A DNA stretch of 29,427 nt, from positions 4,670 through 34,096 of the forward strand of contig JAXINV010000024.1 of assembly GCA_034190465.1 (NCBI GenBank). The letters run 5' to 3'. Under the pieces are notes generated by a model. That model was not told the origin of the DNA. It searched no databases and saw only the letters and a program-made list of their open reading frames with translations. The position numbers and the translations under genes were made by a program. Origin of the DNA: Candidatus Asbonarchaeum danakilense (GTDB lineage: Archaea > Nanohalarchaeota > Nanosalinia > Nanosalinales > Nanoanaerosalinaceae). Of this stretch, positions 16,775-21,965 are shown in pieces. Position 1 is the first letter of the stretch. Each line of letters begins with the position of its first letter.

Positions 16775-19700
16775 ATGGAGATCGGCACCGTAGAGGGCGC
16801 TGTCAACACAGAAACGTTCCACTTCGAGGCGCACAAGGACGTCGAGAAGTTCGACTTCGTCGCGGTCAAGGCCAACACCGACGAGGCCGAATGGCTGCTC
16901 GCACAGATCGCAGAGGTCGAGAAGAAGCCTCTCAAGGACAGCGACAAGGTCGACGACGCGTACAAGACCGTCGCCTCCGCCAACATCATCGGCTACCGGA
17001 ACAAGGGCCTGCTGAAGAAGCCCCGGTCCGTCATCGAGCCCGACTCCATCGTCTACCGCGCCGACCAGGACCTGATCAGCGACACCCTCGGCCTGGACCA
17101 GAACGGCCTCTACATGGGCCTGCTGCTCACAGATCCCGACATCAAGATCTACATGGACCCCGAGGACCTGTACAAGCACTTCGCCGTCCTCGCGAAGACA
17201 GGCGCCGGCAAGTGCGTGAGCGGAGAGACCCCGATCCTCCTTGCAGACGGTACAACGAAACCGATCAGAGAGATATTCGAAGAACATGCCGCAAGGACCG
17301 TCCACGAGAATGAAGATGAGACGCTCGTCCGGCTCGATGACGTTCAGGTCCAGAGCCTGGACGGCAATCGGCAGATCGGTTCAAGTGAGGCAGTCTTCGG
17401 CTACCGGAAGGAAGAAGACACAGTTATAACGATAACAACCGAATCCGGACGGGAAATCACGGTCTCAGAGGAGCATCCGCTGCTCACCGCGGAGGAAGAC
17501 ATCTCGTTCACCGAGGCAGCGGATCTGGAAGAGGGACACCACATCGCTGTTCCGCGCACCACCGACGCCACAGAGGACGCCACACTCTCCCTCTCTCCAG
17601 ATCTCCAGGCACGAAGCAGTGCCATCGTTGCGGAACGACAGGAAAAACAGCGCCAGTATCAAACAGCGATGGAGATCAGATCTCAGGGCAACGGACCAAC
17701 GACGATATCAGCCATGACGGGTGCAAAGCAGGGAACGGTCGAGAACTGGATATATCACGGTGATCAACCTGCCGCGACCGTCCAGGAAGGGTTGGCTGTC
17801 TCGGAGACCGGGAAACAGATTGAACTGCCCGGGGACCTTACGTCACTGTCCGAATTCCTTGCACTGCTGATAGCAGAGGGGGCTGAACAGTACACCCATT
17901 ACTACCGCGCCATCTTCAGCAACAGCGACCAGCAGTTGCTCGACCGTTTCACTATGCTGACGGAACAGCTCTTCGGTCTTGAGGCCCGGCCCATGGAGGG
18001 GGGCGTATATATCGATTCCAACGCGCTGAAGGCCTTCCTCGACGACATCGGGTACCGGACCTGTCAGCGCTCCGCAACGAAACAGATACCTAACATCGTC
18101 ATGCGTGCCCCACAGGCGGCAAAGAAGGCATTCCTCCAGGCATACTTCGACTGTGACGGCTGGATGGACGATCATGAAGCTTGTGTAATCTCTGCCAGCA
18201 GAGAAATCATCAACCGGCTTGCCTACCTGCTCCTCGAGTTCGGGATCGTCGCTCGTCTCAGGGAGACGGCGAAGACAGCGACCAACAGTGAGCATACAGA
18301 GGATACCTACTACGAACTGGTCATCAGCGGTCGGAACGACCTGGAGCTGTTCGCTGAACGTATCGGTTTCGGGCTGGAGCGGAAACAGGCGAAGCTCCAG
18401 AGCTATCTCGACGGAAGAGAGAGGAACACGAACGTCGATATCATCCCTGTTGACGGTGATGCGATCCGGAACGCGAGAGAGAAACAGGGGCTGAGCCAGC
18501 GGGAACTCGCGTCGGAGATCGACATGTCACAGATGAGCATCAGCCGTTACGAGAACGAGAACAGACGGCCTTCACGGCAGGCCCTCAAGAGACTTGCAGA
18601 CCAGCTCGGGCTGGACCAGTATCACAGACTGAGCACAGCAGATATCAGCTGGGACAGGATAGCAAGCATCGAACGGAAGGACAACCCGGGAACCCATGTC
18701 TACGATCTCACCGTCCGGGATGACCACACCTTCATCGGCGGCTACGGTGGCATCATCAACCATAACTCCTACGCAACAGCCGTCCTCATCGAGGAGCTGC
18801 TGGAAAAGGACTATCCCGTCGTCATCATCGACCCGCACGACGAATACCACAGCCTCACCGAGCCCAACGTCCTCGAGGACGAGGACATGCAGCAGTACGA
18901 CGTCGAGCCGCGGGACTTCCCGACGCAGGAGTACTCGACCAACACCGAGCTCAACCACCGCGCGGAGCAATTGACGTTCTCCTCGAAGAACATGGACGCC
19001 AAGGAGATCCAGCAGGTCGTCCCGACCAACCTGACGAACTCGCAGCTCGGCGTGCTGTACACAGCGCTGAAGGAGCTGAAGAAGCGGGAGAGCTACACCC
19101 TGGACGACGTCATCGAGACCTGCATGGACCAGGACTCCAAGGCCAAGTGGAACCTGATCAACATGCTGGAGACCGTGCGTGACTCCGGGCTGTTCGCGGA
19201 GCAGCCGACCGACCTGGACCAGCTGATCGAGCAGGGTACCGCCACCATCATCAACCTGCGCGGGGTCGACCCCGAGATGCAGGAGACCGTGGTCTACAAG
19301 CTGTCCAAGGAGCTGTTCGAGCGGCGGAAACGCGGCAAGCTGGAGCCGTTCTTCATGGTGATGGAGGAGGCGCACAACTTCGTGCCGGAGAAAGGCATGG
19401 GCAAGGCGATCTGCTCCGACATCCTGCGGAAGATCGCCTCTGAGGGCCGCAAGTTCGGCATGGGGATCGGCGTGATCTCCCAGCGGCCGGCCAACGTCGC
19501 GAAGAACATCCTGTCCCAGTGCAACACCCAGCTCATCATGCGTGTCACCAACCCGAACGACCTGTCCGCCATCTCCCGCAGCTTCGAGGGCGTGACCAGC
19601 GAGGTCGAGGACTCGATCACGAGCCTACCGCCCGGCGTCGGGCTGCTGCTGGGCAAGGAGTACCCGATCATGACCGACATCCGGGTCCGGAAGTCCAAGC

Positions 19701-20386
19701 ACGGCGGCGGGACGAAGGACGTCTCCGAGGAGGAAGGCATCGAGAAGGGCGGCGAAACCCGTGAGGAAGAGAGCCTGACCGCGAAGGCGGAGCAGACCGA
19801 CGTCGAGATCGGGCACGACGACCAGCCCGAGGAAGTTGACGAGCCGGACGAACGGGTCATCGAGGCGTTCACCGCAGCGATGAGCCAGGACGACCTGCCA
19901 CAGGACATGGACGAACCGGTGACCGCGTACTACCCGATCTACATCGTCAAGACGCCTGTCGGGCGGCTGGCGATCGACGCCGAGGACGGCGAGGTGACCG
20001 CCAGAGACCTCAACCTGACCGATCAGGCGGACAGCGTGCTGGACGGCCTGAAGGAGCACGATATGACCAGGGCGGAGCTCTCCGAGCTGACGTCGCTGGA
20101 CGAGGAGACGGTCGGCAAGATCCTGGACCGGCTGCGGGACTACCGCCTCGTGGAGAAGGACGATGAATACTACTCCTACACCGGTGTCGACCTGTTCTCC
20201 CACCAGGTGGAGGAGGTGGACGCCGCCGGCGACCGCGTGATCGACGTCAAGCTCTCCGAGGACGAGGCACGCCAGATCGCGAAGGATGAGCTTGGCAAGG
20301 AGGCGAAGAACGTCCGGCTGGTCTACTACCCGTACTTCAAGACCGGGAACCGGGTGTTCGACGCGGTGCTGGAGAAGGAGGTCTGA
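16775..20386 (+). CDS. HerA-like (DUF87/FtsK-HerA) ATPase with intein and C-terminal wHTH
   Basis: N-terminal HAS-barrel-like region; HFAVLAKTGAGK|S Walker A; IIDPHDEY; FMVMEEAHNF Walker B; EGRKFG; SQRPA; SQCNTQ. Mature extein 685 aa. Confidence 0.92.
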   Translation: MEIGTVEGAVNTETFHFEAHKDVEKFDFVAVKANTDEAEWLLAQIAEVEKKPLKDSDKVDDAYKTVASANIIGYRNKGLLKKPRSVIEPDSIVYRADQDLISDTLGLDQNGLYMGLLLTDPDIKIYMDPEDLYKHFAVLAKTGAGKCVSGETPILLADGTTKPIREIFEEHAARTVHENEDETLVRLDDVQVQSLDGNRQIGSSEAVFGYRKEEDTVITITTESGREITVSEEHPLLTAEEDISFTEAADLEEGHHIAVPRTTDATEDATLSLSPDLQARSSAIVAERQEKQRQYQTAMEIRSQGNGPTTISAMTGAKQGTVENWIYHGDQPAATVQEGLAVSETGKQIELPGDLTSLSEFLALLIAEGAEQYTHYYRAIFSNSDQQLLDRFTMLTEQLFGLEARPMEGGVYIDSNALKAFLDDIGYRTCQRSATKQIPNIVMRAPQAAKKAFLQAYFDCDGWMDDHEACVISASREIINRLAYLLLEFGIVARLRETAKTATNSEHTEDTYYELVISGRNDLELFAERIGFGLERKQAKLQSYLDGRERNTNVDIIPVDGDAIRNAREKQGLSQRELASEIDMSQMSISRYENENRRPSRQALKRLADQLGLDQYHRLSTADISWDRIASIERKDNPGTHVYDLTVRDDHTFIGGYGGIINHNSYATAVLIEELLEKDYPVVIIDPHDEYHSLTEPNVLEDEDMQQYDVEPRDFPTQEYSTNTELNHRAEQLTFSSKNMDAKEIQQVVPTNLTNSQLGVLYTALKELKKRESYTLDDVIETCMDQDSKAKWNLINMLETVRDSGLFAEQPTDLDQLIEQGTATIINLRGVDPEMQETVVYKLSKELFERRKRGKLEPFFMVMEEAHNFVPEKGMGKAICSDILRKIASEGRKFGMGIGVISQRPANVAKNILSQCNTQLIMRVTNPNDLSAISRSFEGVTSEVEDSITSLPPGVGLLLGKEYPIMTDIRVRKSKHGGGTKDVSEEEGIEKGGETREEESLTAKAEQTDVEIGHDDQPEEVDEPDERVIEAFTAAMSQDDLPQDMDEPVTAYYPIYIVKTPVGRLAIDAEDGEVTARDLNLTDQADSVLDGLKEHDMTRAELSELTSLDEETVGKILDRLRDYRLVEKDDEYYSYTGVDLFSHQVEEVDAAGDRVIDVKLSEDEARQIAKDELGKEAKNVRLVYYPYFKTGNRVFDAVLEKEV
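17213..18766 (+). mobile_element. Intein (518 aa) with LAGLIDADG homing endonuclease and HTH domains
   Basis: Starts CVSGETPILLADG after GAGK; block B ITVSEEHPLL; LAGLIDADG blocks FLALLIAEG and FLQAYFDCDG; ends VYDLTVRDDHTFIGG..IINHN with +1 Ser. Confidence 0.96.
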
Positions 20387-20397
20387 CCGCGGCAAGC

Positions 20398-20405
20398 CTT
20401 AAAAT
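20398..20405 (+). promoter_or_regulatory. TATA box of tRNA-Val
   Basis: CTTAAAAT ~28 nt upstream of the tRNA. Confidence 0.5.
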
Positions 20406-20432
20406 GCTTATCGCCTAACAGGACGGTGATAC

Positions 20433-20506
20433 GGGTCGTTGGTCTAGTTGGTCAGGACGTCGCCTTGACGTGGCGAAGGTCGGAGGTTCGAATCCTCCAC
20501 GACCCA
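20433..20506 (+). tRNA. tRNA-Val (GAC)
   Basis: Acceptor GGGTCGT/ACGACCC plus discriminator A; anticodon arm TCGCC-TT GAC GT-GGCGA; T arm GGAGG-TTCGAAT-CCTCC. Confidence 0.95.
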
Positions 20507-20887
20507 TCTCGCTTCTCTCGATGCTTGAAGGAGGATTCGCAACCTCGCAGAAGCACCAGCTTCAACCGGTTCGAATCCTCCACGACCCATTCTTAGAGGC
20601 GAGCCCTTCCCTCTGAAGTTCACCACGTCACAACGTTCCGTTGGAACGTTGTTCGAACCTGCTTCGACCCGAAGCAGGTGAGTTCCACTCTCGCTGGCGC
20701 TCGAGTCCGATTCGAATCCTCCACGACCCATCTACGATAGTTGGAGGGGCAGAAGATCTCCGATCTTCAACCTCCACGACCCACTCCGACGCTTCCGGAG
20801 TAGAAGGAGACGGTTCGCTCCGCGAACCGTCTATGAGATCTGCCGCCTGCATCGTCTGGCAGGCGTTCTGAATCCTCCACGACCCAT
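20485..20887 (+). repeat. Array of tRNA-Val 3'-end direct repeats with unique hairpin spacers
   Basis: Copies end at 20506 (tRNA), 20589, 20730, 20783 and 20886. All share CCTCCACGACCCA; four of five share GAATCCTCCACGACCCAT. Unit lengths 83, 141, 53 and 103 nt. Confidence 0.92.
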
Positions 20888-21062
20888 ACTCTCTCTGTTC
20901 GTCTGGTCTGGGGAGTTCCGCGATGAGGATAGAGCGTTACGCTTTCTCCCGAAGAAGTTCAACCCCCTGCATAAGAATCCGCTCTGCCCTCCCGCCGACC
21001 CTCAATAGTGTGAGTACCCGAGGGTAAGGAATAAATAAATCGGGTGGGAAGCTGCGGGAGAA

Positions 21063-21965
21063 ATGCTTGAGCAGGACGATCTGTCGCGGCGGGACTTCCT
21101 GAAGCTGGGCGGAGCCGCGGCAGTGCTCGGCCCGTCGCTGGCCGTCGGCAAGGAGTACGCCAGCAAGTACATGGAGCAGTTCGAGAACAGCCTGCCGATG
21201 GAGGTCAACGTCTACCAGACGCCCGACGTGGCCGAAACAGCGGCAGCGTACGGCAGGGACGAGCACCATGCGCAGGACGTCGCCGCGGCCTACATCCAGG
21301 ACGCGTTCAATGAGGTCTTCGACCGGACAGGGATCGACGCCGAGGTCCACGTCAACGTCGTCGACGAGCCCGTCGACATGGGCGACCACGACACGACAGA
21401 AGGCATGCTCAAGGACTGGTACGACGAACTCGCCACACGGGAAGACACCGCGTCGCACAGCAACCTGCTCATCCACGGCAACCACTACATGGACGCGCTT
21501 GGCGAGGGAGAATCCGGCTGGGACGGTCCGCTCGGCCACGTCCACAGCTGCGGCACGTCGAGCGAGGTCTCGAACGGGGCCGTCCTCGGCAACGGTTACC
21601 GACTCATCGAACTCGACCCCGAGACGGTCAACGAGACCACGGCGTGGAAGCTCTATGCCGAGGACCTCGACGAGACCATCTACCCGGGGCATCCGCCGGC
21701 AGAATGGGTGGCGTACAGCGCTGCGCACGAGGTCGGGCACAACAGCTGCCTGCACCACGACATGGGCGACGTCACCGTCGAGGACCAGGAGCACGGTCGG
21801 GAGCTCACAGCCAGCGTGATGATGGGCGCATACTACGACGAATTCGCCGATGAGACGAACGGCGGCAGCAGGGTCCCAGAGCCAGAGGAGAACGACGACA
21901 TCTACCTCTCCAACCGGTTCAGCGAGACAGTCGAACAGTTCCTGGCCGAGACATACGGCCAGTGA
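21063..21965 (+). CDS. Tat-exported zinc metalloprotease (metzincin-like)
   Basis: SRRDFLK twin-arginine signal; HEVGHNSCLHH zinc motif; downstream SVMM Met-turn. Confidence 0.8.
   Translation: MLEQDDLSRRDFLKLGGAAAVLGPSLAVGKEYASKYMEQFENSLPMEVNVYQTPDVAETAAAYGRDEHHAQDVAAAYIQDAFNEVFDRTGIDAEVHVNVVDEPVDMGDHDTTEGMLKDWYDELATREDTASHSNLLIHGNHYMDALGEGESGWDGPLGHVHSCGTSSEVSNGAVLGNGYRLIELDPETVNETTAWKLYAEDLDETIYPGHPPAEWVAYSAAHEVGHNSCLHHDMGDVTVEDQEHGRELTASVMMGAYYDEFADETNGGSRVPEPEENDDIYLSNRFSETVEQFLAETYGQ

What the first reader, a model, noticed from the sequence alone, without database searches (positions are those of the whole stretch)
20485..20887. CRISPR/integron-like array built from the tRNA-Val 3' end: four extra att-like repeats with unique spacers
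Seen: the last ~13-23 nt of tRNA-Val (GGTTCGAATCCTCCACGACCCA+T) recur at 20568-20590, 20711-20731, 20766-20783 (degenerate, TTCAA-CCTCCACGACCCA) and 20866-20887 (1-nt insertion, TTCTGAATCC...). Spacers are mutually unrelated and non-coding; unit lengths are 83, 141, 53 and 103 nt. The two copies nearest the tRNA are exact and the distal two are decayed, which suggests polar addition at the tRNA end. Known: tyrosine integrases of archaeal viruses and islands duplicate tRNA 3' ends, but usually once and around kb-scale cargo. Inference: this is either (a) a stack of tiny non-autonomous elements serially inserted at attB by a recombinase in trans, a kind of integration record or att decoy array, or (b) a tRNA-promoter-driven cassette of small structured RNAs delimited by tRNA-like 3' processing sites. 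No integrase, transposase or cas gene lies in this window.
Basis: partly seen in the sequence, partly recalled or inferred. Interest (0 to 1): 0.88.

Follow-up and report, generated by a model that had tools for sequence, protein, structure and literature searches.

The report
Hairpin cassettes stacked behind tRNA-Val
Four short non-coding units, each ending in a copy of the tRNA's own tail, are stacked behind a valine tRNA gene of a tiny salt-lake archaeon; similar units flank many tRNA genes in salt-loving archaea, including the model genus Haloferax, and look like small gain-and-loss insertions, not a CRISPR or integron array.

Summary
tRNA-Val(GAC) (20433-20506) is followed by four units of 83, 141, 53 and 103 nt. 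Each ends in a copy of the tRNA from the T-loop to the discriminator (5 copies of the 13-mer, 0 expected).

It is not a one-off. In this genome and a congener many tRNAs carry such 3' units, and some carry mirror-image 5' units. In the commonest unit type an anti-repeat pairs with the copied T-loop/T-stem around a small inner hairpin.

Relatives show an empty site. A congener has only an orthologous unit 1, with arms re-matched to its own tRNA. A near-identical strain has the units in another order and lacks unit 2.

The same architecture occurs in four genomes of a second family of the order, in 13 of 13 filtered hits that are all halophilic archaea, and in 22 of 22 Haloferax genomes.

No cas1, reverse transcriptase or Y1 (IS200/IS605-type) transposase was found. 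The only integrase lies on another contig and does not track the units. No unit matched known phages or plasmids.

Best reading: non-autonomous cassettes that accrete at tRNA ends and keep the tRNA intact; the enzyme is unknown. Main rival: functional pre-tRNA flank structures.

This scan noted the same at tRNA-Pro of this genome. Eight full-text searches, one of them only for the tycheposon papers, found no description.

The parts
20399..20412 (+). TATA-like promoter element of the tRNA gene (TTAAAATGCTTATC), centred about 31 nt upstream of the tRNA
   Evidence: Read. A similar element is kept at the syntenic place in G001, where it lies distal to the 5' insertions. Its promoter function is inferred, not tested.
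20433..20506 (+). tRNA-Val(GAC), intact, no encoded CCA
   Evidence: ARAGORN; Rfam RF00005, 68.8 bits.
20507..20589 (+). Unit 1 (83 nt), hairpin type: linker 20507-20529, anti-repeat 20530-20544, inner hairpin 20550-20563, tRNA-end copy 20568-20589
   Evidence: DNA fold -17.5 kcal/mol, z -4.2, 0 of 200 shuffles as good. Its own repeat pairs better than all 20 other tRNAs' repeats. Absent in G004, whose tRNA is followed directly by the sequence that follows copy 1 here. An orthologue is present in G001.
20590..20730 (+). Unit 2 (141 nt), no anti-repeat: three hairpins, then tRNA-end copy 20711-20730. Its start (20593-20615) and end (about 20681-20708) match the G004 tRNA-Val trailer and part of tRNA-Trp introns in another family
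   Evidence: Fold z -5.2. Own-repeat pairing is not better than others. Homology seen. Missing from the related strain in run X4.
20731..20783 (+). Unit 3 (53 nt), short hairpin type: anti-repeat 20742-20747, inner hairpin 20752-20768, copy 20771-20783
   Evidence: Fold z -2.65; own repeat pairs best of 20. The same inner hairpin lies behind tRNA-Val(CAC) of this genome and tRNA-Gly(GCC) of G025. It lies after unit 4 in the X4 strain.
20784..20886 (+). Unit 4 (103 nt), no anti-repeat: a 5-bp/7-nt-loop hairpin, a 10-bp hairpin, a third hairpin, then copy 20866-20886 with a 1-nt insertion
   Evidence: Fold z -3.4. The first two hairpins resemble the two-hairpin module found beside other tRNA fragments and the G001 sequence after its unit 1. 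The third hairpin resembles one behind tRNA-Pro(CGG).
20887..21062 (+). Unstructured tail between the last copy and the next gene (a TAT-signal protein starting at 21063)
   Evidence: The part folded (20888-21000) is no better than shuffles (z +0.86). Gene.

Best explanation
The array is a stack of four small, non-coding, hairpin-rich cassettes that have accumulated at the 3' end of tRNA-Val(GAC). Each ends in a copy of the tRNA from the T-loop to the discriminator, so every addition leaves an intact tRNA and pushes older copies downstream. It is one instance of a class of tRNA-end cassettes that flank many tRNA genes in halophilic archaea: downstream ones ending in the tRNA's 3' end, and in this lineage also upstream mirror images starting with its 5' end. 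Shown here: cassettes are gained next to the tRNA, lost or reshuffled by recombination between the repeated tRNA ends, sometimes duplicated in tandem, and built from modules shared between different tRNAs and genomes. They sit in the parts of the tRNA precursor that would be trimmed off if, as the promoter positions suggest, they are co-transcribed with the tRNA. Inferred: they are selfish or neutral non-autonomous insertions mobilised in trans. The likeliest route is recombination in the near-universal T-loop (or the D-loop for 5' units), as tyrosine integrases do at tRNA genes. In that picture the anti-repeat/copy hairpin is the element's recombination site or its arm. The enzyme and the source of new cassettes are unknown.
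For: Boundaries: across the genome, downstream copies start at tRNA position about 53-55 and run to the discriminator (+0 to +2 nt). Upstream copies start at position 1 (42 same-strand self-matches against 3 opposite-strand in the flanks of 43 ARAGORN calls; the 42 include two matches beside 100-N gaps, one locus present on two contigs and a few chance 11-12-mers). G001: 27 against 2 for 30 tRNAs. Architecture: linker, anti-repeat, inner hairpin, copy in most of 24 units. The anti-repeat fits its own tRNA (mean -12.2 against -8.3 kcal/mol; for 9 of 24 units no other tRNA's repeat pairs as well). Gain next to the tRNA: G004 tRNA-Val is followed directly by what follows copy 1 here. The first tRNA-Phe unit in G004 corresponds to the second in G000. 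Turnover: of 17 anticodons with clean flanks in both G000 and G001, 7 have no unit in either and 10 differ in number or side. Strain variation: one X4 contig (95-99% identical pieces) reads tRNA, u1, u4, u3 and lacks u2, with the joint inside the shared 13-mer. Module sharing across tRNAs and genomes. Promoter-like boxes lie distal to the 5' units. G001's tRNA-Val(GAC) has the anticodon arm of the GAC type but both ends of the CAC/TAC type, with breakpoints in the D-arm and T-stem. Integrase genes sit about 105 nt behind two G001 tRNAs, so tRNA-targeting elements exist in the genus. No coding capacity and no Rfam family. Closest logic in print: serial integration pushing older elements distally (tycheposon preprint, passages).
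Against: No autonomous parent was found. The one tyrosine recombinase of G000 lies on another contig beside an Orc1/Cdc6 gene. It is patchy in the order (34 of 70 genomes), present in many genomes of the family without units, and not found with this query in three unit-bearing but incomplete genomes. The arms of the G001 integrase elements match nothing in G000, and their distal att copies were not found. More than a dozen different tRNAs are occupied, and each unit's T-stem and acceptor parts fit its own tRNA. A simple element carrying one att site does not explain that. In Haloferacaceae the tRNA-Ser(CGA) unit keeps its place, length (123-159 nt) and hairpins with compensatory changes (9 of 20 predicted pairs), which looks like constraint. 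Some growth is plain tandem duplication. No excised form or insertion event was observed.
Confidence: 0.5

Rival explanations
1. The units are functional cis-acting structures of the tRNA precursor or of the tRNA gene, such as terminator, processing or insulator hairpins. They evolve in place by local duplication, gene conversion with the tRNA end and hairpin-templated correction. The array would be a locally amplified version of such a flank.
For: In Haloferacaceae, by my reading of the sequences, about 27 of 30 tRNA-Ser(CGA) loci keep a hairpin directly after a T-rich start and 18 of 30 keep the full unit. Hairpin pairs covary (for example CG 6 / GC 5 and AU 6 / CG 5; 9 of 20 pairs). The anti-repeat follows the T-stem variant of the tRNA. 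The pattern occurs in 22 of 22 Haloferax genomes. Units are not found on phages or plasmids. G000 and G001 share an orthologous unit 1 whose repeat and anti-repeat both changed with the tRNA. Two RNA 3' ends were reported downstream of the H. volcanii tRNA-Pro gene (PMC7237163, passages).
Against: Many tRNAs have no unit (7 of 17 anticodons have none in either congener). Number and side differ between congeners for 10 of 17 and between near-identical strains. G004 and the other family members searched lack the array, and the pattern was found in 0 of 50 genomes of the largest family of the order. Copies are truncated or decayed in places (window copies 3 and 4). Mirror-image 5' units and reuse of one module in leaders, trailers and an intron fit DNA insertion better than a single RNA role. 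The unpaired acceptor part of each copy is also kept, which a hairpin function does not require.
Confidence: 0.27
2. The units are deletion scars. Kb-scale proviruses or plasmids integrated at the tRNA one after another and were later almost wholly deleted, leaving their att-proximal ends.
For: tRNA-end duplications by kb-scale elements are well documented in haloarchaea and other archaea (PMC3119063, PMC5861418 and PMC9897764, passages). Integrase genes lie next to tRNAs in G001.
Against: First-unit gaps are tightly sized (50-63 nt at 11 tRNAs) and share one architecture, which random deletion would not give. No spacer matches phages, plasmids or the integrase-element arms.
Confidence: 0.08
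3. The array is an adaptive or expression array: a CRISPR-like or integron-like record of captured DNA, or a cassette of small RNAs released at tRNA-like 3' ends.
For: Polar order, repeat-delimited units, and hairpins next to the repeats in units 1 and 3. Unit order differs between strains, as with integron cassettes.
Against: Cas1 and reverse transcriptase were not found in the 92% complete genome. No integrase lies at the array. Spacers are reused structured modules without matches to mobile DNA. The units hold no genes and hit no Rfam family.
Confidence: 0.06
4. The array is an assembly artefact caused by collapsed or mis-joined repeats.
For: Other tRNA arrays of this genome sit beside 100-N gaps or contig ends.
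Against: Independent Logan contigs from three runs cover all junctions, and the repeats (13-22 nt) are shorter than the 31-nt index words named in the read tool's description. The same architecture is seen in an 8-contig congener and in named isolates.
Confidence: 0.01

Closest known systems
Serial integration of tyrosine-integrase elements at tRNA genes (attL/attR duplications; tandem accretion as described for tycheposons; integrase-less att-flanked derivatives called CIMEs, a name I recall and that an earlier scan note also uses)
   Same: A direct repeat of the tRNA's 3' part starting in the T-loop; the tRNA stays intact; newer units lie next to the tRNA and older ones are pushed outward (tycheposon preprint 10.1101/2020.12.28.424599, passages); presence varies between relatives.
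   Different: Units are 53-141 nt rather than kilobases, carry no gene, and have a fixed hairpin architecture with an anti-repeat. They occupy more than a dozen tRNAs in a 1.2-Mb genome and also occur as mirror images at 5' ends. No parent element or linked integrase was found.
Integron cassette arrays with folded attC sites
   Same: Repeat-delimited units, an imperfect hairpin with bulges at the unit boundary in units 1 and 3, and a unit order that differs between strains.
   Different: No intI/attI platform, no ORFs in the units, the boundary sequence is the tRNA's own end, and only some units have the hairpin. Integrons are known from bacteria (recalled).
MITEs, REP-like and palindrome-associated elements of haloarchaea (MITEHsal and PATE elements in PMC7002104 and PMC3119063, passages)
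   Same: Short, non-coding, structured, multi-copy, presumably mobilised in trans.
   Different: The units have no terminal inverted repeats with a short target duplication and no matching transposase (Y1 transposase not found, TnpB below cut-off). Insertion is confined to tRNA ends and comes with a 20-22-nt copy of the target.
CRISPR arrays
   Same: Direct repeats with intervening sequences and apparent polar growth.
   Different: Irregular spacing, repeats equal to a tRNA end, no cas1, and spacers that are reused modules.
Archaeal tRNA introns and split or permuted tRNA genes (PMC3218864, search listing and start of abstract only)
   Same: Extra structured sequence inside or beside tRNA genes that is removed during maturation. 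Part of unit 2 also occurs inside tRNA-Trp introns of another family.
   Different: The units lie outside an already complete tRNA, and the unit 1 fold does not show the canonical bulge-helix-bulge geometry.

Membership tests
CRISPR array | Near-identical repeats at regular spacing with spacers of similar length | tested here: not met
   Units of 83, 141, 53 and 103 nt; repeats share only 13-22 nt.
CRISPR array | cas genes (at least cas1) in the genome or beside the array | tested here: not met
   PF01867 was not found in the 92% complete genome; the control search hit 7 known genomes.
CRISPR array | Spacers derived from foreign DNA | tested here: not met
   No match of 20485-20900 in phages or plasmids; spacer modules recur at other tRNAs.
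Integron | intI integrase with attI next to the array | tested here: not met
   The only PF00589 hit above cut-off is on contig C45, beside an Orc1/Cdc6 gene.
Integron | Cassettes bounded by imperfect palindromic sites | tested here: inconclusive
   Units 1 and 3 have a bulged hairpin that includes the repeat; units 2 and 4 do not.
Integron | Cassettes usually carry a promoterless ORF | tested here: not met
   Units are 53-141 nt; the overlapping ORFs have no Pfam match.
tRNA-integrating element (att duplication) | Direct repeat of the tRNA's 3' part on the same strand, with the tRNA left intact | tested here: met
   copies start at position 53-55 and end at the discriminator.
tRNA-integrating element (att duplication) | Integrase gene inside the repeat-bounded segment | tested here: not met
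   No ORF with a family match inside the array; integrase hits lie elsewhere.
tRNA-integrating element (att duplication) | Present or absent at the same tRNA among relatives | tested here: met
   G004 and seven other family genomes lack the array. G001 has one unit. The X4 strain has another order.
Non-autonomous att-flanked derivative (CIME-like) | A cognate autonomous element sharing the same att site and arms | tested here: not met
   The integrase-element arms of G001 have no significant match in G000. No distal att copy was found. No phage or plasmid match.
Non-autonomous att-flanked derivative (CIME-like) | Excision and integration by an integrase supplied in trans | not testable with these tools
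   Needs circle-junction PCR or long reads and recombination assays.
IS-derived MITE | Terminal inverted repeats, a short target duplication, and a related transposase | tested here: not met
   Hairpin arms are internal and include the target copy. PF01797 was not found and PF07282 scored below cut-off.
Archaeal tRNA intron (bulge-helix-bulge) | Two 3-nt bulges separated by a 4-bp helix at the boundaries | tested here: inconclusive
   The unit 1 fold has 10 bp, a 1-nt bulge, 4 bp, then an internal loop. Only minimum-energy folds were inspected.
Any Rfam RNA family | A covariance-model match | tested here: not met
   Only tRNA matched in 20000-21500 at E up to 1.

The most novel reading that the evidence does not exclude
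Halophilic archaea, both haloarchaea and some of the nanohaloarchaea that live beside them in salt-lake communities, carry a previously undescribed class of tRNA-end cassettes. The cassettes insert by a mechanism that reads the tRNA gene itself. The generic parts (linker, complement of the T-loop, inner hairpin) travel. The tRNA-specific parts (T-stem strands, acceptor strand) are copied from the target or kept matched to it. The resulting folded hairpin acts as the recombination site, much as folded single strands do for integron cassettes and some filamentous phages (recalled). The arrays would then be a cargo-less, archaeal, tRNA-anchored counterpart of cassette systems, and the similar inner hairpins in the two phyla could reflect exchange between them.
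Probability: 0.15. Interest if true: 0.85.

Novelty: new variant of a known kind. Interest (0 to 1): 0.64.

Why it matters
If the units are mobile, they are among the smallest site-specific insertions known. They would show how selfish DNA can persist in a 1.2-Mb genome by living only in the trimmed flanks of tRNA genes while always restoring the tRNA. They would also explain contig breaks at tRNA loci in such assemblies and mis-called 'intron-containing' or partial tRNAs. If instead they are functional, roughly two in five tRNA genes examined in one Haloferax genome (12 of 30) carry an unrecognised flank element. Either way the question is open to experiment, because the same architecture is present in all 22 Haloferax species genomes searched, a genus with genetics and published 5'- and 3'-end maps. 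The arm matching between tRNA, copy and anti-repeat is an unusual three-way covariation that needs a mechanism.

Tried and rejected
Rfam scan of 20000-21500 at E up to 1: only the tRNA.

RNA evidence: no RNA holder was listed for the stretch, so expression stayed unchecked.

Phage and plasmid searches: one search used wrong minus-strand coordinates and means nothing. The repeat with correct coordinates and the window array gave no match.

Integrase link: the recombinase does not track unit-bearing genomes. A second candidate turned out to be a DEAD-box helicase.

A resemblance I saw by eye between the G001 integrase-element arm and a tRNA-Leu linker was not recovered by BLAST (best E 0.023, in unrelated coding sequence).

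Distal att copies of the G001 integrase elements were not found at up to 2 mismatches in 21 nt.

Metagenome scan with the tRNA-Val 20-mer: 56 loci, almost all bacterial tRNA-Lys genes that share the 20-mer and only one nanohaloarchaeal, so it added no array variants.

A general proximal-to-distal decay gradient is not seen.

The idea that the ATGCT-containing linker motif is a promoter rests only on likeness to the tRNA's own upstream box and was not tested.

A retro-copy origin is unlikely: no CCA follows the copies and no reverse transcriptase was found.

Literature: eight full-text searches (and, which failed on a format slip and was re-sent as 62); only located the tycheposon papers. Passages were read in six papers. 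None describes short hairpin units ending in tRNA-end copies. Subscription journals and supplements were not seen.
Full report
**What is there.** The window holds one tRNA gene, tRNA-Val(GAC) at 20433-20506 on the + strand. Downstream, the last 13-22 nt of the tRNA recur four times on the same strand. Counting the tRNA's own end, the 13-mer ends at 20506, 20589, 20730, 20783 and 20886: five occurrences against none in 100 shuffles. This gives units of 83, 141, 53 and 103 nt, here called u1-u4.
- Copies 1 and 2 are exact from the T-loop onward.
- Copy 3 keeps only the last 13 nt.
- Copy 4 has a 1-nt insertion.
- No CCA follows any copy.
- Each unit folds better than its shuffles as single-stranded DNA (z -4.2, -5.2, -2.65, -3.4). 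The stretch folded after the array (20888-21000) does not (z +0.86).
- The three ORFs that overlap the array have no Pfam match, and Rfam finds only the tRNA.
- Logan contigs from three runs cover all junctions, so a mis-assembly is unlikely, although one run may be the source of the assembly.

**Not a one-off.** The window lies in a 1.2-Mb, 61% G+C, 92% complete archaeal genome of 81 contigs from salt-lake metagenomes. I did not verify the name independently, but relatives in its order have 0.5-1.7-Mb genomes.
- I scanned the flanks (700 nt) of 43 ARAGORN tRNA calls for matches to the tRNA itself. This gave 42 same-strand matches (30 downstream, 12 upstream) against 3 on the opposite strand.
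- The 42 include two matches beside 100-N scaffold gaps, one locus present on two contigs, and a few chance 11-12-mers. Some intron-containing ARAGORN calls are false.
- Downstream copies start at tRNA position 53-55 (the T-loop) and run to the discriminator plus 0-2 nt.
- The first copy lies 50-63 nt behind the tRNA at 11 tRNAs.
- Upstream copies start at position 1 and reach the D-arm.
- The same-genus genome G001 (8 contigs) gives 27 same-strand against 2 opposite-strand matches for 30 tRNAs.

**Architecture.** Most 3' units have, in order: a linker of about 20-25 nt; an anti-repeat complementary to the T-loop and T-stem 3' strand of that particular tRNA; a small inner hairpin whose stem base is GAAR/YTTC; and then the copy.
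- The anti-repeat fits its own tRNA. Mean duplex energy with the unit's own copy is -12.2 kcal/mol, against -8.3 with copies from other tRNAs. For 9 of 24 units no other tRNA's copy pairs as well.
- In the window, u1 and u3 are of this type (own copy best against all 20 others). u2 and u4 are not and consist of other hairpin modules.
- The T-stem is a Watson-Crick helix, so the tRNA-specific part of the anti-repeat equals the tRNA's own T-stem 5' strand. The truly generic parts of a unit are therefore the linker, the complement of the T-loop and the inner hairpin.
- The 5' units are mirror images: copy, hairpin, anti-repeat, linker, tRNA. TATA-like boxes lie upstream of the most distal 5' fragment, so the insertions sit between promoter and tRNA.

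**Modules are shared.**
- Pairwise the four window spacers are not significantly alike (best pair u1-u3: score 10; shuffles mean 6.1, max 11).
- u1 is homologous to the first unit behind tRNA-Val(CAC).
- The inner hairpin of u3 recurs behind tRNA-Val(CAC) and behind tRNA-Gly(GCC) of G025, which belongs to another family.
- The last hairpin of u4 resembles one behind tRNA-Pro(CGG).
- The first two hairpins of u4 resemble a two-hairpin module found only beside tRNA fragments (7 of 22 genome hits of its loop motif; the other 15 are chance hits in unrelated, mostly coding-looking sequence).
- Part of u2 occurs in the tRNA-Val trailer of G004 and inside tRNA-Trp introns of G017 and G023.
- The first units behind tRNA-Phe and tRNA-Pro(CGG) share the hairpin. 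These two tRNAs have the same T-arm but different acceptor ends, and each copy carries its own tRNA's acceptor end.

**Gain, loss and reshuffling.**
- In G004 the tRNA-Val gene is followed directly by the sequence that follows copy 1 here. G004 therefore shows the empty site for u1.
- The seven other genomes of the family with this tRNA show a single copy of the tRNA's 3' end.
- At tRNA-Phe, the first G004 unit corresponds to the second G000 unit, so again the unit next to the tRNA is the newer one.
- G001 has the syntenic locus with only one 3' unit. It is orthologous to u1 in linker and inner hairpin. G001's tRNA-Val(GAC) has a different T-arm and acceptor stem, and both the copy and the anti-repeat of its unit match that version.
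- G001's tRNA keeps the anticodon arm of the GAC type but has ends like the CAC/TAC tRNAs. It also has a 5' unit that G000 lacks.
- Of 17 anticodons with clean flanks in both genomes, 7 have no unit in either and 10 differ in number or side. tRNA-Gly(CCC), whose flank in G000 reaches a contig end, has one 3' unit in both.
- In run X4, from a different study, one 3171-nt contig is 95-99% identical in its aligned pieces. It reads: tRNA end, u1, u4, 29 other letters, u3, 118 other letters, downstream gene. u2 is missing, and the joint between u1 and u4 lies inside the shared 13-mer.
- In Haloferacaceae one locus has near-identical tandem units, so plain unequal recombination also adds units.
- Copy quality does not fall with distance in general.

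**How wide.** I used a strict pattern: complement of the T-loop, 8-38 nt, then the T-loop.
- It hits 6 of 70 genomes of the order: G000 and G004 in one family, 4 of 8 in a second family, and 0 of 50 in the largest family. The reversed control has no hits.
- In those relatives the hits lie just behind tRNAs and end with that tRNA's own tail.
13 of them passed a filter requiring a tRNA within 80 nt upstream and a copy that continues to match that tRNA's tail (mostly 12 of 12 or 13 of 13).
- All 13 are halophilic archaea: Haloferax (two), Halorubrum, Natronorubrum, Natronococcus, Natrarchaeobius, Salinigranum and six MAGs or unnamed isolates.
- None of the 118 viral loci returned passed.
- In one Haloferax genome, 12 of 30 tRNA genes examined have a downstream copy running to within 2 nt of the 3' end, with gaps of 74-125 nt.
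- The pattern is present in 22 of 22 Haloferax species genomes, with controls at 0.
- Some Haloferax inner hairpins resemble the nanohaloarchaeal ones.

**The case for constraint.** I fetched tRNA-Ser(CGA) loci from 30 genomes of the Haloferax family.
- 14 have a strict copy ending 123-159 nt downstream.
- 4 more have a full unit with a mutated copy.
- 3 are truncated after the anti-repeat.
- 6 keep only a first hairpin.
- 3 have nothing recognisable (the last four classes are my reading of the sequences).
- The first hairpin differs in sequence between genomes but keeps its pairs. RNAalifold finds compensatory changes at 9 of 20 predicted pairs.
- The anti-repeat follows the T-stem variant of the tRNA.
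- This fits selection on structure. It also fits replacement by different family members, or gene conversion plus hairpin-templated correction.

**Enzymes.**
- Cas1, reverse transcriptase and the Y1 transposase were not found in G000, and TnpB scored below its cut-off.
- One tyrosine recombinase (457 aa, weak XerA-like) lies on a 4.9-kb contig beside an Orc1/Cdc6 gene.
- It is patchy in the order (34 of 70 genomes) and has 66-68% identical copies in the family without units. It was not found with this query in three unit-bearing but incomplete genomes.
- In G001, related integrase genes lie about 105 nt behind tRNA-Ile and tRNA-Pro(CGG). I found no distal copy of those tRNA ends, and their arms match nothing in G000.
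- Tyrosine-integrase genes therefore sit beside tRNAs in the genus, but nothing ties them to the units.

**Verdict.**
- The CRISPR/integron framing fails its membership tests.
- I rate 'non-autonomous tRNA-end cassettes that accrete, recombine and are lost' at about 0.5. I rate a functional flank element at about 0.27. The remainder goes to deletion scars, an adaptive or RNA array, and artefact.
- The insertion mechanism is inferred, not shown. The T-loop and D-loop boundaries suggest recombination in those loops.
- The exact tRNA-end boundaries can be explained if only the tRNA itself is conserved between donors and recipients.
- The matching of arms to each tRNA remains unexplained.
- Eight full-text searches (one only locating the tycheposon papers) and passages from six papers gave only kb-scale tRNA integrations and IS-derived MITEs.
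- This scan had already noted the same thing at tRNA-Pro of this genome, and a similar cassette in a candidate-phyla-radiation bacterium.

Noticed in passing
window 16775-20386 (+): The gene just upstream of the tRNA encodes a 1203-aa HerA/DUF87-type helicase interrupted by an intein with a LAGLIDADG domain. It also carries helix-turn-helix domains.
   Followed up: no
L057 (G001:C1) about 1270-1680: G001's tRNA-Val(GAC) looks chimeric: the anticodon arm is identical to G000's, but the acceptor and T-arm are like the CAC/TAC tRNA-Val genes. Upstream lie a 5' fragment, the two-hairpin module and a roughly 108-nt three-hairpin structure closed by a 7-bp stem.
   Followed up: partly
L007 (G003:C39) about 120-251: G003's tRNA-Val(GAC) has a roughly 57-nt insertion after the D-loop with no second 5' copy. 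It is either a non-canonical intron or a disrupted gene.
   Followed up: no
L034 (G023) and L048 (G017), tRNA-Trp introns: The long tRNA-Trp introns contain a module homologous to the start and end of window unit 2 and to the G004 tRNA-Val trailer. The same module thus occurs in an intron and in trailers.
   Followed up: no
window 20387-20399: In the related strain of run X4, 624 other letters lie between the helicase stop codon and the tRNA promoter.
   Followed up: no
window 20650-20706 and 20836-20872: These two hairpin stretches of units 2 and 4 also match higher-depth contigs in the same samples (7 differences in 57 nt; depth about 58 against 10). The modules therefore exist in more abundant community members.
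   Followed up: no
G000 contigs C1 (about 99606), C5 (about 49240), C17 (about 6340); ends of C23, C36, C5, C15: Runs of 100 N and contig ends coincide with tRNA-end repeat arrays, so these arrays fragment the assembly. ARAGORN with introns allowed sometimes joins a tRNA half to a flanking copy.
   Followed up: partly
L068 (G001:C4) and L091 (G001:C2): Integrase genes of the same family as the G000 recombinase lie about 105 nt downstream of tRNA-Ile(GAT) and tRNA-Pro(CGG), preceded by homologous arms. Only the N-terminal 150 or so residues matched the query, one with a stop codon inside.
   Followed up: partly
L434, L432, L439, L448 (metagenome contigs): Low-G+C bacterial contigs show tRNA-Lys followed by tandem 106-nt pseudo-copies of the tRNA with inserted hairpins (L434). 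Others show a terminator, an anti-repeat of the T-arm and a distal partial copy (L439). Related phenomena may therefore exist in bacteria.
   Followed up: no
window 20507-20529 and linkers of other units: Many linkers carry an (A)ATGCT motif 12-16 nt after the tRNA or copy end. It resembles the box upstream of the tRNA itself. Whether it is a promoter or a terminator element is unknown.
   Followed up: no
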